DNA of 2,773 nt from Naegleria gruberi (lineage: Eukaryota), in the NCBI GenBank assembly GCA_000004985.1, contig GG739246.1, one strand, 5' to 3'. The notes under the pieces were generated by a model. The model searched no databases. It saw only the letters and a list, made by a program, of their open reading frames with translations, and was not told where the DNA came from. The translations under genes and the position numbers were made by a program. The first letter of the stretch is position 1; every line of letters begins with the position of its first letter. Shown here one piece after another: positions 1 to 2,773 of this stretch.

Positions 1-358
1 TATTCCTTTTCAACTCCCAAAATAAGGAATATTGACAAGTCAATTGATTTTGAGTAACAATAGCAGGGACATTAATCATCTTGGGATTGGTAAGGAAAGA
101 AAACTTTTGATTTCCACTCCAGTCAAAGTCATCATGATAATGAACCTCAAAATAACCTCTAAAATGTCCCAATTCAAAGAAGTACGTCGGAATTACCTGT
201 GTATCTACATCATGAATACTATCCAAGTTATAAAACATGACATGTTTTTCAAAGCTTTCCCTCACCATCACCAACACCATTATCAATACCAACACTAAAC
301 ACCACCTATGGCTATCAAACAAGTGTGCATGCGTGCGTTCAATCTTTTGCATCTTCAT
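1..358 (-). CDS. 5' part of a gene running off the left edge (ATG at 358..356). Product begins MKMQKIERTHAHLFDSHRWCLVLVLIMVLVMVRESFEKHVMFYNLDSIHDVDTQVIPTYFFELGHFRGYFEVHYHDDFDWSGNQKFSFLTNPKMINVPAIVTQNQLTCQYSLFWELKRN... A signal-anchor or signal-peptide-like N-terminus; family not recognised
   Basis: Hand translation of the minus strand gives 119 stop-free codons from ATG down to position 1. An in-frame TAG lies about 20 codons upstream of the ATG. This ORF is missing from the supplied track only because it has no stop inside the window. A charged N-terminal segment followed by a 14-residue hydrophobic core resembles a type II membrane or secreted protein. The plus-strand ORF 32..298 is its antisense shadow. 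Confidence 0.55.
   Translation of the reverse strand, partial: MKMQKIERTHAHLFDSHRWCLVLVLIMVLVMVRESFEKHVMFYNLDSIHDVDTQVIPTYFFELGHFRGYFEVHYHDDFDWSGNQKFSFLTNPKMINVPAIVTQNQLTCQYSLFWELKRN
263..280. repeat. Three tandem hexamers CACCAT/CACCAA/CACCAT (minus strand ATGGTG TTGGTG ATGGTG) inside the coding region of the 1..358 gene. They encode the hydrophobic core MVLVMV
   Basis: Read directly from the sequence. It is a short imperfect tandem repeat and also produces the His/Gln-rich antisense ORF. Confidence 0.5.
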
Positions 359-412
359 CAAAACGAGAGAGAGGGAATGAAACAATGACGAGTCGTTATA
401 TTTTTTTTAAGG

Positions 413-419
413 CTAGAAA
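413..419 (-). promoter_or_regulatory. TTTCTAG motif about 55 nt upstream of the ATG at 358. It is a candidate 3' (trans-)splice acceptor for the downstream same-strand gene
   Basis: It resembles the TTTTCAG/TTTCTAG acceptor consensus. It lies in a ~220-bp spacer between two genes on the same strand, followed by a CT-rich tract (TTCCCTCTCTCTCG) just before the ATG. Confidence 0.15.
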
Positions 420-450
420 TTTTTACTCTGCCTTATAATGTGGAGATTTT

Positions 451-458
451 AGCGCGCT
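451..458. repeat. Perfect 8-bp GC palindrome AGCGCGCT in an AT-rich intergenic spacer
   Basis: Read directly from the sequence. It is the only GCGCGC in the window. Confidence 0.5.
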
Positions 459-477
459 GTAAAAAAGATTTAAGGGT

Positions 478-483
478 TCATTT
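478..483 (-). promoter_or_regulatory. Possible variant poly(A) signal AATGAA about 97 nt downstream of the kinase stop
   Basis: No exact AATAAA occurs between the stop at 580 and the next gene's start at 358. AATGAA is a commonly used variant hexamer in several metazoa. Position alone supports it. Confidence 0.15.
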
Positions 484-579
484 TGAAACAGTAAATGGTT
501 TACAATGAGTAGTTGATACCAAGTAGGGATGACTAGAAAGTATTTGTTAAAATATTCTCTCAATGGAATTTTGCAGCTA

Positions 580-1198
580 TTAAATACTTCTTGTTTCTAA
601 TAACTGTTCAGCAAGTTTTGAAAAGGAAGGCCTTTGATAGAAATCTTCACACCACGAACATTGTACCATGGAAAACAATGCATCAAGAACTGTTAAATGC
701 TTTTCAAAAGGATCTTCCTGCCTAATTATGCTTAATCTCTTTGCTTGATTCAAATCATCTTTAATGAAATATTCTCTAATCCACATTTTCATAATTTGAG
801 ATTGGGGATTAAGAGGCAATTTTGGAAGAGGTAGACGTAATCCTTCAGATATTAGTTTTGGAACTAGAAGGAGAGAATTCTGATTTGCAATGTGTGCAAA
901 TGTTTCACCTTCCTGTGTTGGCATGATTGTGGAATACTTTTGATTAGTTCCATAATTGTACTGGAATATACAATTCTCATCAAATATTAATTGCCACATT
1001 ATGATGGCAAAGCTATAGACATCTGACTTTTCATTATAATTTTTACCTAATAGAACTTCTGGAGCCATGTATAGCAAAGAACCAACTTGTCCTGTTTTGG
1101 TGGTTTTTGAATTATCGTTTGAAAGTTTGGACAATCCAAAATCACAAACTTTTGGTGTTAAATCATTAGAAAGTAAAATATTGCCTGGCTTTAAATCT
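580..1198 (-). CDS. Protein kinase catalytic domain, 3' exon (subdomains VIb-XI, stop TAA at 580-582). Ser/Thr or TKL-like: ...RDLKPGNILL...DFGLS...APE...DVYSFAIIMWQL...RPSF
   Basis: The 208-codon open frame carries DLKPGN (the R codon is split across the intron), DFG at 1135-1143, APE at 1057-1065, DVYSF, and RPSF near the C-terminus. An open frame this long is very unlikely by chance at 65% AT (roughly 7% stop codons per codon). All 13 Gln are CAA/CAG, so the standard code applies. A double stop TAATAG ends the frame. Confidence 0.85.
864..908 (-). other. Candidate in-frame 45-nt intron inside the kinase exon (GTGAAAC...TTCTCTCCTTCTAG); spliced and retained forms both keep the frame
   Basis: The sequence shows CAG GAA G|GTGAAAC, and 45 nt later AATTCTCTCCTTCTAG|TT. 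That is a good donor plus a pyrimidine tract with a TAG acceptor. The length is 3n and stop-free, so the ORF alone cannot decide. Splicing would remove GETFAHIANQNSLLL from an unusually long insert. Confidence 0.3.
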
Positions 1199-1233
1199 CT
1201 GATCATTAATAGAATTGTTTTGAATCAACTCAC
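1199..1233 (-). other. Spliceosomal intron, 35 nt, GTGAGTTGATTC...TTAATGATCAG on the minus strand
   Basis: The upstream exon ends ...GTA ATT ATA CAT AG followed by a textbook donor AG|GTGAGT. Left unspliced, the frame hits TGA at once. Removing 1199-1233 joins CAT AG|A GAT TTA AAG, which reads IIHRDLKPGNILL. That is the canonical kinase catalytic loop, so the intron is strongly supported by protein homology logic. Confidence 0.75.
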
Positions 1234-1394
1234 CTATGTATAATTACACAATTATCCTTTCCTCCATGTAAATACCTCATTCCATTAGCAATTCCAATAA
1301 GAATTGATATCTTTACTCTCAAATCAATATATTTCTTCTTTAGTTTACATTCATAAATTAATTTTTCCACACAACCTCCATGAAAAGACGGTAA
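1234..1394 (-). CDS. Protein kinase exon encoding alphaE / subdomain VIa up to the catalytic His: ...LPSFHGGCVEKLIYECKLKKKYIDLRVKISILIGIANGMRYLHGGKDNCVIIH. The true 5' boundary (acceptor) is unresolved
   Basis: This frame is shifted from exon 2 by the 35-nt intron. LIYECKLKKKYIDLRVKISILIGIANGMRYLH aligns with the LYxLLHxKKxxLxxxxRLxMAxDIAxGMxYLH pattern of TKL kinases. The frame is bounded upstream by an in-frame TAA at 1395-1397 and contains no ATG before the GM of GMRYLH. It therefore cannot be a first exon. Confidence 0.7.
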
Positions 1395-1617
1395 TTATAA
1401 TAGAAACGAAACCACAAACTGAACAGAAGGCAAGAATTATGAAAGGAACAATGAGAAGAGTGTTGAATCTGCAAGAATATGCATAATCTCCTTCAATAAT
1501 CTTATCCTCTCTCATTAAAATATACCAAGGTGGACATGAATTTACAGAAAATGGGACTGAAATACTAGCTGTAAAGCTCTCTGTTGTAAAAAAGGTAGTT
1601 TTGATTGTTAATGTCAA
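1351..1617 (-). CDS. Hypothetical ORF with a single strong TM-like helix (LLIVPFIILAFCSVCGFVSIIITVF) and a basic stop-transfer (SWRLCGK). It ends at a TGA overlapping the 5' end of kinase exon 1 in another frame. A first ATG at about 1517 would give a 62-aa product
   Basis: This is an 88-codon open frame that the track starts at a TTG. By my estimate, roughly one ORF of this length is expected by chance in a window of this size and composition. The minus strand is T-rich here, which inflates hydrophobic ORFs. It is reported as a possibility only. Confidence 0.2.
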   Translation of the reverse strand: MTLTIKTTFFTTESFTASISVPFSVNSCPPWYILMREDKIIEGDYAYSCRFNTLLIVPFIILAFCSVCGFVSIIITVFSWRLCGKINL

Positions 1618-1678
1618 TGTAGAACTAGGCTGGTTGAGTAATCAAGAAACTTTGATTCAACAATAATTACAGTAAGAA

Positions 1679-1740
1679 CTGAAAGAGATGATAAATATAA
1701 GGAGTGATATTCATCATTGGGAACTTTGTTGGAATATTAC
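1679..1740 (-). other. Candidate 62-nt intron GTAATATTCC...TCATCTCTTTCAG
   Basis: A GTAATA donor sits directly after a complete codon. The pyrimidine tract ending TCTCTTTCAG matches nematode-style TTTCAG acceptors. The downstream exon in phase 0 would read FLL then TAA. Confidence 0.3.
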
Positions 1741-2006
1741 CAATCTCATTTCCAAAAGTTCTTCCAACGAAGAAACATTTTTGAGTATGGTATGATGTAA
1801 TTCAGTTGGTAGTTGAGTAAAATTAAATTCCTCTCCACTATTGGCTTTCTCATTCACATCAATAGGAGGTAATACTGTTTGATTGGCTCCATAAAAATAA
1901 TTGAAATCAACGAGAGGCAAATGGTTCATGTGAAATAGTACCGTCCTTTCCAATTCTGCATCTCCTGAAGTGGCTATTTCAAACGAAGGAACTGTCCGAT
2001 CGGTCA
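1741..2006 (-). CDS. Candidate internal or terminal exon of an unresolved gene: ...TDRTVPSFEIATSGDAELERTVLFHMNHLPLVDFNYFYGANQTVLPPIDVNEKANSGEEFNFTQLPTELHHTILKNVSSLEELLEMRL
   Basis: It is preceded by an excellent acceptor, TTTTCTTCTATTTCTTGCCTATTTAACAG| at 2007/2008. It ends at a strong donor, TTG|GTAATA at 1740. Only this frame is open across the segment; the other two carry many stops. There is no ATG before FHMNH. I could not chain it to an upstream exon, and every downstream acceptor I tried leads into a stop within 13 codons or fewer. Confidence 0.35.
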
Positions 2007-2269
2007 CTGTTAAATAGGCAAGAAATAGAAGAAAATTCGAATATGGAATTTTCTATTTGTAAGGTACCACCCCAATAATATAGCACTCATATAACCTGCC
2101 TTAAATCTCGAATTTCTTATTACAATGTAAAACTGTTTCACAAGATTAAAATGTATCTTTGAACCAAGGTTTAGAATTGTGTTTTCACTAGTTGAAGAGT
2201 TAATTGTTTTAAGAAAGTCTAATTTTGATTGAGTTCCCACAGTTACATTGTCAAGCGTAAGTTTACCAC

Positions 2270-2761
2270 TTATTTCATTAACATAAATAATTCTTCAAAA
2301 ACACAATTCTGAATTTCAATTTGACCATCAAAATCCAGGTTCAACCGTAAATTCAAATTTGAAAATTTAAGAGGAACAATATCATAATATTTAACAAAGC
2401 CTACACAGGATTTTCTTGTTGTCAAGGAAGTAATGTGTAGGCTCTTAATGTTCCAATTATTATTAATAAAACCAACACACATCACATCGTCATCCATAAT
2501 ATTAAATTGTACTGCCAGATTAGATGTATTAGTACTATTCATCTTCATTAATAAATCAAGTGCATATTTAATTGTATTGCATGGTTTTTTAGCTGATGAA
2601 CATTTTTCATTATCCAAGCCCTTTCCACTTAAATATATTTCCCTTATTTCTTCCTGTAATGCTAAGGAGGAGGAAATTAATAGAATTATAGAAAGGATCA
2701 TCACCACAATCATCCTTACCATCGAATGGTGATGTATTGTGCTGTAGCATGAATTCCTCAT
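2270..2761 (-). CDS. Small protein (163 aa if unspliced), ATG at 2761 with TAA four codons upstream, stop TAA 2270-2272. Shows an apparent signal peptide, then a Cys/Asn-containing domain with NST/NTS glycosylation sequons (...KCSSAKKPCNTIKYALDLL...)
   Basis: The 163-codon ATG-initiated ORF has varied, protein-like composition, and the other frames are full of stops. Residues 15-36 (VRMIVVMILSIILLISSSLALQ) sit after a basic n-region and look like a cleavable signal peptide. I recognise no domain with confidence. Confidence 0.6.
   Translation of the reverse strand: MRNSCYSTIHHHSMVRMIVVMILSIILLISSSLALQEEIREIYLSGKGLDNEKCSSAKKPCNTIKYALDLLMKMNSTNTSNLAVQFNIMDDDVMCVGFINNNWNIKSLHITSLTTRKSCVGFVKYYDIVPLKFSNLNLRLNLDFDGQIEIQNCVFEELFMLMK
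2654..2719 (-). other. Candidate 66-nt in-frame intron (ATG|GTAAGG...CCTCCTCCTTAGCATTACAG|G). It coincides exactly with the hydrophobic signal-peptide-like segment of the 2270..2761 ORF
   Basis: The donor is GTAAGG, and a strongly pyrimidine-rich tract ends in TTACAG. Length is 3n with no stop. The same bases therefore either encode VRMIVVMILSIILLISSSLALQ or are removed. Sequence alone cannot decide. Confidence 0.3.
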
Positions 2762-2773
2762 CTCACAATTTTA

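What the first reader, a model, noticed from the sequence alone, without database searches (positions are those of the whole stretch)
580..1397. Kinase catalytic C-lobe is present, but no N-lobe is encoded anywhere in the window
The two exons encode subdomains V/VIa through XI of an apparently catalytically competent kinase (HRD, DFG, APE, DVYSF and RPSF all intact). The kinase frame is closed by TAA at 1395-1397. There is no ATG upstream of GMRYLH. I translated all three minus-strand frames across 1395..2270 and found no Gly-rich loop (GxGxxG), no VAIK lysine and no alphaC Glu/HPN motif. This could be a 5'-truncated kinase gene fragment or pseudogene. It could be a gene whose N-lobe exons lie beyond 2773 with the 2270..2761 gene nested in a long intron. 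It could also be a genuinely N-lobe-less kinase-like protein.
Basis: partly seen in the sequence, partly recalled or inferred. Interest (0 to 1): 0.6.

Follow-up and report, generated by a model that had tools for sequence, protein, structure and literature searches.

The report
Broken receptor-kinase gene copy in Naegleria
The half-kinase is real, but it is the surviving tail of a recently broken, rearranged copy of a Naegleria gruberi receptor-kinase gene that lost its front half through an internal deletion, so it is an ordinary pseudogene and not a new kind of kinase.

Summary
The minus strand 1394..583 encodes kinase subdomains V-XI with HRD, DFG, APE, DVYSF and RPSF intact, split by a 35-nt intron (1233..1199). 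No N-lobe is detectable in any of the six frames.

The window is a complete 2773-bp Naegleria gruberi scaffold. The ORF at 580..1206 is the annotated protein XP_002668174.1, and its start codon lies inside the intron.

The window is collinear with full-length relatives that have a signal peptide, a beta-helix/PMP ectodomain, a TM helix, a juxtamembrane segment and a full kinase. The ORF at 2270..2761 is this gene's own signal-peptide exon, not a nested gene. Compared with paralogue L004, the copy has:
- two ectodomain frameshifts
- a ~270-bp piece of an F-box gene in place of ectodomain sequence
- a ~975-bp ectodomain deletion
- a ~448-bp deletion removing the juxtamembrane segment, Gly-loop, an intron, VAIK, alphaC and beta4-5

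The TM helix (1458..1384) therefore abuts subdomain V out of frame, with a stop at 1353..1351.

The C-lobe's intact frame and dN/dS of about 0.19 indicate the damage is recent. An independent assembly confirms only 2..1274. It shows no differences in the C-lobe, so residual function is not excluded.

Verdict: a non-processed, rearranged pseudogene. Interest is low.

The parts
2273..2761 (-). 5' exon remnant: start codon (2761..2759), signal peptide and first ~140 ectodomain residues of the receptor kinase. The frame closes with TAA at 2272..2270.
   Evidence: tblastn with L004 ectodomain aa 19-155 against window 2713..~2290, frame -1. ORF listed. Coordinates.
2273..2294 (-). Frameshift 1. Homology to the continuous ORF of L004 jumps from frame -1 to frame -3 inside this 22-nt overlap of the two open frames.
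   Evidence: L004 has one uninterrupted ORF here. There is no room for an intron.
2090..2270 (-). Ectodomain segment in frame -3 (SGKLTLDNVTVGT...IRNSRFKAGYMSA), matching L004 aa 160-225.
   Evidence: tblastn alignment. Coordinates.
2082..2084 (-). Frameshift 2. MSA (frame -3) and LYYWGG (frame -1) overlap by 2 nt, whereas L004 reads MSALYYWDG continuously.
2024..2083 (-). Ectodomain segment in frame -1 (LYYWGGTLQIENSIFEFSSI), matching L004 aa 226-246.
1729..1995 (-). Inserted internal fragment of an F-box gene, equivalent to aa 255-343 of N. gruberi NAEGRDRAFT_69196. It replaces the equivalent of L004 ectodomain aa 247-311. The core, 1983..1738, is 82 aa at 100% identity.
   Evidence: P0121, 96% identity. 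(tblastn E 3e-51). (residue comparison). (80% nt identity to L005). (F-box Pfam match at P0121 aa 314-359).
1647..1712 (-). Short ectodomain remnant in frame -3 (EYHSLYLSSLSVLTVIIVESKF), matching L004 aa 312-334. It is followed by a junction (1646..1639) where about 975 bp of L004 (2427-3401, the beta-helix/PMP repeats) are missing.
   Evidence: blastn (window 1656-1712 against L004 2426-2370, 77%)..
1384..1638 (-). Membrane-proximal stalk plus transmembrane helix, frame -2. The helix is LLIVPFIILAFCSVCGFVSIIITVF, 1458..1384.
   Evidence: tblastn with L004 ecto2 aa 191-273, 54% identity, E 5e-28. The L003 TM region also matches, E 9e-6.
1351..1383 (-). Out-of-frame read-through of the TM frame into kinase DNA (SWRLCGKINL, then TGA at 1353..1351).
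1382..1390 (-). Deletion junction. About 448 bp present in L004 (3636-4083) are missing here. They encode the juxtamembrane segment, the GEGGMG Gly-loop, an intron, VALK, alphaC and beta4-beta5. The two flanks are 1 nt out of register.
   Evidence: blastn coordinates. DNA alignment. Sequences.
1234..1394 (-). Kinase exon 1 (subdomains V-VIb up to HR). The frame opens after TAA at 1397..1395, and homology begins at 1382.
   Evidence: (78-80% aa identity to L004 and L001).
1199..1233 (-). 35-nt intron (GTGAGT...CAG) at the HR|D position, shared with L004 and L001. It contains the ATG (1206..1204) that the database model XP_002668174.1 uses as its start codon.
   Evidence: P0001 sequence.
580..1198 (-). 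Kinase exon 2 (subdomains VIb-XI: DLKPGN, DFG, APE, DVYSF, RPSF) plus the stop codon at 582..580.
   Evidence: Confirmed base for base, apart from the stop codon, by the independent contig L007.

Best explanation
The window is a whole small scaffold of Naegleria gruberi. It carries a recently disabled, non-processed (intron-retaining) pseudogene of a family of single-pass receptor kinases. The family's layout is signal peptide, right-handed beta-helix/PMP-repeat ectodomain, TM helix, juxtamembrane segment and a TKL-like kinase.

The N-lobe is missing because an internal deletion of about 450 bp joined the cytoplasmic end of the TM helix directly to kinase subdomain V, one nucleotide out of frame. 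Any transcript read from the original start codon would therefore stop 10 codons after the helix, even if the earlier lesions are ignored. Those lesions are two ectodomain frameshifts, a ~270-bp templated insertion from an F-box gene, and a ~975-bp ectodomain deletion.

The C-lobe is not translated in its native context. It looks catalytically competent only because too little time has passed for it to decay.

Shown: collinearity with relatives, the lesions, the absence of an N-lobe, and the past constraint on the C-lobe. Inferred: that the locus is non-functional now, that the lesions are recent, and that the clustered same-orientation junctions may reflect one complex repair or replication event. 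A possible ATGGA microhomology at the N-lobe junction is also only inferred.
For: - Identity. The ORF at 580..1206 equals XP_002668174.1 / NAEGRDRAFT_76915, on a contig of exactly 2773 bp.
- Full-length relatives. L004, L002 and L003 encode ectodomain, TM, juxtamembrane segment, GEGG(M/N)G, VALK and the rest of the kinase. The L002 ectodomain passes the Pfam cut-offs for Beta_helix and Chlam_PMP. N. gruberi itself has a paralogue with an N-lobe (P0004).
- Collinear map with gaps. Window 1009-1381 aligns to L004 4465-4084 (83%). Window 1391-1624 aligns to L004 3635-3402. Window 1656-1712 aligns to L004 2426-2370. Window 2029-2273 aligns to L004 2166-1909.
- The junction shows the TM frame reading ...ITVFSWRLCGKINL* across kinase DNA.
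- No N-lobe in any frame.
- No family-type splice donor anywhere upstream of 1233.
- The F-box insert has 82 aa identical to NAEGRDRAFT_69196, so it is a very recent copy.
- The intron at HR|D is retained, so this is not a retrocopy.
- Nei-Gojobori dN/dS over 112 codons: window-L004 0.19, window-L001 0.13, L004-L001 0.12. The C-lobe was therefore constrained for most of its history.
- 6.0% of single-base changes in the C-lobe would create a stop, which bounds neutral time at under about 0.064 substitutions per site (95%).
- The independent contig L007 matches window 2..1274 with no indels. That stretch of the scaffold is accurately sequenced, so poor base-calling is a less likely source of the upstream frameshifts. 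L007 does not cover the frameshifts themselves.
Against: - The C-lobe frame is fully intact over 259 codons with every catalytic motif.
- Its branch-level dN/dS is no higher than that of the intact paralogues.
- Between two strains there are 0 differences in 692 nt of C-lobe CDS plus intron, against 5 in the 579 nt downstream. Under a uniform rate, P is about 0.009. This could mean present-day constraint, although the five differences cluster in 147 nt (252-398), which weakens the test.
- The deletion junction (1382-1390) and the other junctions are seen in only one assembly. L007 stops at 1274.
- Expression data were not available.
- Lesion sizes are measured against a paralogue (dS about 0.5), not the true parent. 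Part of the ectodomain 'deletion' could be natural length variation between paralogues.
Confidence: 0.8

Rival explanations
1. The C-lobe, or a TM-anchored C-lobe, is a functional N-lobe-less kinase-like module. It could be expressed from an internal start (for example the Met of GMRYLH) or through an unconventional splice that joins the TM exon to subdomain V. It would act as a non-catalytic scaffold or decoy, a KIND-like domain at an early stage.
For: - The 259-codon frame is intact with all C-lobe motifs.
- dN/dS is 0.13-0.19, similar to the intact paralogues.
- No differences in 692 nt between two strains, against 5 in the downstream 579 nt.
- 21 minimal GT..AG pairs could in principle join the two frames.
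- The locus is annotated as a protein.
Against: - None of the 21 candidate introns has the GTRAGT donor seen at the five confirmed introns examined in this family: one in the window, two in L004, one in L001 and one in L003.
- Exon 1 has no ATG before subdomain VIa.
- The annotated start codon sits inside the intron, so the gene model is an artefact.
- The upstream gene body has two frameshifts and a foreign insert, so a TM-anchored product would need several further rescues.
- Retention of HRD and DFG is not expected of a long-standing non-catalytic module. Low dN/dS against distant paralogues mostly reflects history before the lesions.
- No N-lobe-less relative was found among the 519 homologues. 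The closest relatives that were read all have N-lobes or are cut by contig ends.
Confidence: 0.08
2. The mosaic is an artefact. On this view the small scaffold is a chimeric clone or a mis-assembly of reads from several paralogues and the F-box gene, the frameshifts are base-calling errors, and the real genome has an intact gene.
For: - It is a 2.8-kb unplaced scaffold.
- The F-box core is 100% identical at protein level to a gene elsewhere in the genome.
- No independent contig covers 1275..2773.
- The independent contig stops at 1274, inside exon 1.
Against: - Four rearrangement junctions within about 650 bp, all in the same orientation and in collinear order, are not what a single chimeric ligation gives.
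- The shared sequence at the junctions is at most a few bases, which is too short to mislead an overlap assembler.
- The independently assembled half (2..1274) agrees with no indels in 1273 nt, so at least that half of the scaffold is of good quality.
- No intact allele with about 100% identity to exon 1 appeared among the homologues.
Confidence: 0.08
3. The N-lobe exons lie outside the window, and the 2270..2761 ORF is a separate gene nested in a long intron.
For: None beyond the absence of an N-lobe in the window.
Against: - The window is the whole contig.
- The upstream ORF, the ectodomain remnants and the TM helix are collinear with single genes in L004, L002 and L003.
- In relatives the N-lobe lies between the TM helix and subdomain V. 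Here those two are adjacent: the helix ends at 1384 and subdomain V homology starts at 1382.
- Confirmed introns in this family are 35-47 nt long.
Confidence: 0.02

Closest known systems
Naegleria beta-helix/PMP-repeat receptor kinases (full-length relatives L004, L002 and L003; N. gruberi paralogue XP_002677738.1)
   Same: - Same gene order: signal peptide, ectodomain, TM helix, kinase.
- Same HR|D intron position as L004 and L001.
- 83% nt and 84% aa identity to L004 across subdomains VIb-IX.
- 54% aa identity in the stalk and TM region.
   Different: - Lacks the juxtamembrane segment and the whole N-lobe.
- Lacks most of the beta-helix repeats.
- Carries two frameshifts and an F-box gene fragment.
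- Has no continuous reading frame.
Non-processed (duplicated or unitary) pseudogenes of large receptor families in protists, for example the Trichomonas transmembrane cyclase pseudogenes (PMC2914791; title and abstract only were seen)
   Same: A member of an expanded signalling-receptor family. It retains an intron and is disabled by deletions, frameshifts and insertion of foreign sequence.
   Different: Very young. One domain is still completely intact and the locus is annotated as a protein. The lesions are clustered and may stem from a single complex event.
[quoted passage not shown]
   Same: A kinase C-lobe existing without an N-lobe.
   Different: KIND domains have lost the catalytic residues, sit inside larger expressed proteins and are conserved across animals. 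Here HRD and DFG are intact, no KIND profile matched in the Pfam-A scan at E<=1, the frame context is broken, and no conserved N-lobe-less orthologues were found.

Membership tests
Eukaryotic protein kinase catalytic domain (Pfam PF00069/PF07714), complete | Gly-rich loop GxGxxG (subdomain I) | tested here: not met
   Absent from all six frames by tblastn with relatives and by the N-lobe HMM (best 0.7 bits).
Eukaryotic protein kinase catalytic domain (Pfam PF00069/PF07714), complete | VAIK lysine and alphaC glutamate (subdomains II-III) | tested here: not met
   Same searches. The Pfam match covers only profile positions 91-214 of 263.
Eukaryotic protein kinase catalytic domain (Pfam PF00069/PF07714), complete | Catalytic loop HRDLKxxN, DFG, APE, and subdomain IX Asp / XI Arg | tested here: met
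   HRDLKPGN, DFG, APE, DVYSF and RPSF are all present. Pkinase E 2.9e-29.
Naegleria beta-helix receptor kinase family (L002/L003/L004 type) | N-terminal signal peptide and ectodomain homologous to the family | tested here: met
   L004 aa 19-246 aligns to window 2713..2024, but across two frames.
Naegleria beta-helix receptor kinase family (L002/L003/L004 type) | Beta-helix / PMP repeat region | tested here: not met
   There are no Pfam hits in the window's ectodomain pieces. L004 2427-3401 has no counterpart in the window. L002 passes the Beta_helix and Chlam_PMP cut-offs.
Naegleria beta-helix receptor kinase family (L002/L003/L004 type) | Single TM helix followed by a juxtamembrane segment and a full kinase in one reading frame | tested here: not met
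   The TM helix is present (1458..1384). The juxtamembrane segment and N-lobe are absent, and the frames are out of register.
Non-processed pseudogene | Clear homology to functional genes, disabling lesions, and retained intron(s) | tested here: met
   Two frameshifts, two deletions, a foreign insert and a premature stop in the TM frame. The intron at 1233..1199 is retained.
Non-processed pseudogene | Lack of expression or function; relaxed selection | tested here: inconclusive
   Expression is not testable here. dN/dS of 0.19 against paralogues reflects earlier constraint. The strain comparison shows 0 changes in the C-lobe, which is compatible with a very recent origin or with constraint.
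Processed (retrotransposed) pseudogene | Loss of introns, poly(A) tract, flanking target-site duplications | tested here: not met
   The intron is retained. No flanking direct repeats of note.
[quoted passage not shown] | Matches the KIND profile, catalytic residues lost, embedded in a larger conserved protein | tested here: not met
   No KIND family appears among the Pfam-A hits at E<=1. The catalytic residues are intact. No in-frame larger protein exists.

The most novel reading that the evidence does not exclude
The deletion created, very recently, a free-standing or membrane-tethered kinase C-lobe that is still expressed and kept by selection as a non-catalytic interaction or decoy module. 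This would be a KIND-like domain at an early stage in a heterolobosean. The only hints are the intact frame and the complete lack of variation in the C-lobe between two strains.
Probability: 0.05. Interest if true: 0.6.

Novelty: new member of a known kind. Interest (0 to 1): 0.12.

Why it matters
The main value is in correcting annotation.
- XP_002668174.1 / NAEGRDRAFT_76915 (UniProt D2W672) is a gene model that starts inside an intron of a broken gene. It should not be counted in the Naegleria kinome or cited as an N-lobe-less kinase.
- The locus is a tidy example of a young pseudogene in which deletions and a templated insertion of another gene's fragment cluster within about 650 bp.
- It also draws attention to a Naegleria family of receptor kinases with beta-helix/PMP-repeat ectodomains.

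None of this changes what is known about kinase biology.

Tried and rejected
- **Ciliate genetic code (TAA/TAG = Gln) reopening the frame at 1395-1397.** Rejected. All 13 Gln codons of the C-lobe are CAA or CAG, and the organism is Naegleria.
- **Introns rescuing the frame changes.** The only GTRAGT donor on the strand is the known one at 1233. The GT..AG pairs that would join the TM and kinase frames all have poor donors.
- **Fetching the N. gruberi loci of P0001, P0004 and P0121.** Not on record. DNA-level identity of the F-box insert to its source, and the true parent gene, could not be examined.
- **Looking for an independent contig across the junction.** The 163-aa upstream ORF is not on record. 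The ectodomain protein search returned no near-identical ENA protein. L007 stops at 1274. The metagenome scan gave one distant locus only (L006).
- **Left-end ORF (370..1).** No Pfam family and no homologue.
- **Repeats, Rfam and tRNA scans of the window.** Nothing relevant.
- **Literature searches for a Naegleria receptor-kinase description.** These gave only the count of 265 predicted kinases.
Full report
**Source of the sequence.** The C-lobe query found a 100% match to a 208-aa 'predicted protein [Naegleria gruberi]' whose only contig is 2773 bp long, the same length as the window. Its accessions are EFC35430.1, XP_002668174.1, NAEGRDRAFT_76915 and UniProt D2W672. The window is therefore a complete small scaffold of N. 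gruberi, and nothing lies 'beyond 2773' on this record. The standard genetic code applies: all 13 Gln codons in the C-lobe are CAA or CAG, and the frame ends TAA TAG.

**Checking the observation.** On the minus strand, exon 1 is 1394..1234. Its frame opens after TAA at 1397..1395. A 35-nt intron (GTGAGT...CAG) occupies 1233..1199. Exon 2 is 1198..583, with the stop at 582..580. The spliced 259-codon frame contains HRDLKPGN, DFG, APE, DVYSF and RPSF. It matches Pfam Pkinase only over profile positions 91-214 of 263 (E 2.9e-29).

No N-lobe exists anywhere in the window. tblastn with the juxtamembrane and N-lobe parts of four relatives gave nothing at E<=10. An HMM built from seven N-lobes, run with all filters off against the 162 six-frame segments, scored at most 0.7 bits (E 4.9). 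The database protein model starts MI|RDLKPGN, and its ATG (1206..1204) lies inside the intron, so that model is an ORF-calling artefact.

**What relatives look like.** The closest proteins outside the window all carry N-lobes or are cut by contig ends. Their loci show the family's architecture:
- L004 (4465 bp) encodes a signal peptide, about 800 aa of ectodomain, a TM helix, a juxtamembrane segment ending in GEGGMG, a short intron, an exon from VALK to HR, an intron at HR|D, and then the C-lobe up to the contig end.
- L002 and L003 have the same order.
- The L002 ectodomain passes the Pfam cut-offs for Beta_helix and Chlam_PMP.
- L001 is identical in protein to the N. gruberi paralogue XP_002677738.1 (P0004) over the parts they share, and it has an N-lobe.

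**The window against that architecture.** Everything lies on the minus strand and in collinear order:
- 2761..2273 (frame -1) holds the start codon, signal peptide and L004 ectodomain aa 19-155.
- A frameshift lies within 2294..2273.
- 2270..2090 (frame -3) matches aa 160-225.
- A second frameshift lies at 2084..2082. L004 reads MSALYYWDG continuously there, while the window reads MSA and LYYWGG in different frames.
- 2083..2024 (frame -1) matches aa 226-246.
- 1995..1729 (frame -2) is not receptor sequence at all. It is an internal piece (aa 255-343) of the N. gruberi F-box protein NAEGRDRAFT_69196. Its 82-aa core is 100% identical.
- 1712..1647 (frame -3) matches L004 aa 312-334.
- About 975 bp of L004 (2427-3401, the repeat region) then have no counterpart.
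- 1638..1390 (frame -2) is the stalk and TM helix (54% identity, E 5e-28).
- About 448 bp of L004 (3636-4083) then have no counterpart. That stretch encodes the juxtamembrane segment, the Gly-loop, the first kinase intron, VALK, alphaC and beta4-5.
- Kinase homology resumes at 1382.

**The junction.** The TM helix LLIVPFIILAFCSVCGFVSIIITVF (1458..1384) runs straight into subdomain V DNA. Its frame reads ...SWRLCGKINL and stops at TGA 1353..1351, while the kinase frame is offset by one base. The N-lobe was lost by internal deletion, not by 5' truncation.

**Can splicing rescue it?** The five confirmed introns examined in this family are one in the window, two in L004, one in L001 and one in L003. 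All have GTRAGT donors and are 35-47 nt long. The only GTRAGT on the window's minus strand is the known donor at 1233. Twenty-one minimal GT..AG pairs could formally join the TM and kinase frames, but all have non-consensus donors. L004 has uninterrupted ORFs where the window's two ectodomain frameshifts lie.

**Age and selection.** Nei-Gojobori estimates over the 112 codons shared with L004 give:

| Pair | dN | dS | dN/dS |
|---|---|---|---|
| window-L004 | 0.10 | 0.52 | 0.19 |
| window-L001 | n/a | n/a | 0.13 |
| L004-L001 | n/a | n/a | 0.12 |

(all). The C-lobe was under purifying selection for nearly all of its divergence. Because 6.0% of single-base changes in it would create a stop, an intact frame bounds any neutral period at under about 0.064 substitutions per site (95%). 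The perfectly conserved core of the F-box insert points the same way. The lesions are recent, which explains why the C-lobe still looks catalytically competent. Retention of the HR|D intron excludes a retrocopy.

**Independent evidence, and a caveat.** A short-read contig from ENA sample ERZ929261 (L007, 1350 bp) matches window 2..1274 at 99.53% with no gaps. That half of the scaffold is real and accurately sequenced. L007 ends at 1274, so none of the rearrangement junctions is independently confirmed, and no other contig in the collections covers 1275..2773.

The six differences between the two strains are one in the stop codon (581, TAA to TTA, followed by TAG) and five at 252-398. None falls in the 692 nt of C-lobe CDS plus intron. 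Under a uniform rate that has P of about 0.009, which could indicate present-day constraint. The clustering of the five sites within 147 nt makes the test weak. I record it as the main evidence against a plain pseudogene.

**Mechanism.** The best-supported reading is a young, non-processed pseudogene of a beta-helix receptor kinase. Four junctions in the same orientation lie within about 650 bp (about 2023, about 1720, about 1643 and about 1386), and one of them involves a templated copy of another gene. This is what complex break repair or replication template switching produces. That step is inference.

At the N-lobe junction the window reads TCATGGAGG. L003 has a Trp right after its TM helix, and subdomain V of the paralogues reads AATGGAGG. 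A 5-nt ATGGA microhomology is therefore possible, and it would by itself give the observed 1-nt frame offset. This too is inference, because the parent sequence is unknown.

**Rivals.**
- A functional N-lobe-less module (KIND-like; KIND is described in PMC2064798) gets about 0.08. It is favoured only by the intact, invariant C-lobe. It is disfavoured by the frame context, the lack of a start codon or splice donor, and the retained catalytic residues.
- An assembly or cloning artefact gets about 0.08. This is a tiny scaffold and the junctions are seen once, but four collinear junctions without shared repeats do not fit a chimera.
- The nested-gene reading is contradicted (about 0.02).

**Verdict.** Interest is low (0.12). 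The useful outputs are an annotation correction and a description of the rearranged locus.

Noticed in passing
window 1199-1233 (ATG at 1206..1204): The database protein XP_002668174.1 / NAEGRDRAFT_76915 (208 aa, MIRDLKPGN...) starts at an ATG inside the 35-nt HR|D intron. The model is an ORF-calling artefact on a broken gene.
   Followed up: yes
window 1729-1995: A ~270-bp internal fragment of an F-box gene (aa 255-343 of NAEGRDRAFT_69196, including the start of the F-box) sits inside the receptor ectodomain in the same orientation. Its 82-aa core is 100% identical to the source protein, and the near-identical paralogue NAEGRDRAFT_71992 also exists. DNA of the source gene could not be fetched.
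   Followed up: partly
window 1-370 (minus strand), continued in L007 1037-1348: An open frame (MKMQKIERTHAHLF..., at least 119 codons) starts about 210 nt downstream of the kinase stop and runs off the contig end. The independent contig L007 extends it by 25 more codons. It has no Pfam family and no homologue in 5.8 billion proteins, so it is either an orphan gene or not a gene.
   Followed up: partly
window 252-398 and 581: All five non-stop differences between the window and the 99.5%-identical contig L007 cluster in 147 nt, at and just upstream of the start of the left-end ORF. The sixth turns the kinase stop TAA into TTA, and the next codon is TAG. There are no differences in the 692 nt of kinase CDS plus intron.
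   Followed up: partly
L001, L004, L005, L007 (ENA ERZ929261 / ERR1078381 / PRJEB11402): A sample filed as a metagenome contains a genome nearly identical to N. gruberi NEG-M: L007 is 99.5% identical to the window, and the L001 protein is identical to XP_002677738.1. It could serve as an independent read set for checking this scaffold.
   Followed up: partly
L002 1008-4062, L003 157-2097, L004 1434-4465: Naegleria-type receptor kinases with right-handed beta-helix / Chlamydia-PMP-repeat ectodomains. Intron positions differ between paralogues: HR|D in the window, L004 and L001, none there in L002 and L003, and a YMS|PE intron in L003. No description of this family turned up in the literature searches.
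   Followed up: partly
window 2398-2443: A near-perfect hairpin-forming inverted repeat (21-nt arms, 81% complementary, 4-nt spacer) lies inside the first ectodomain exon. Its significance is unknown and it may be chance.
   Followed up: no
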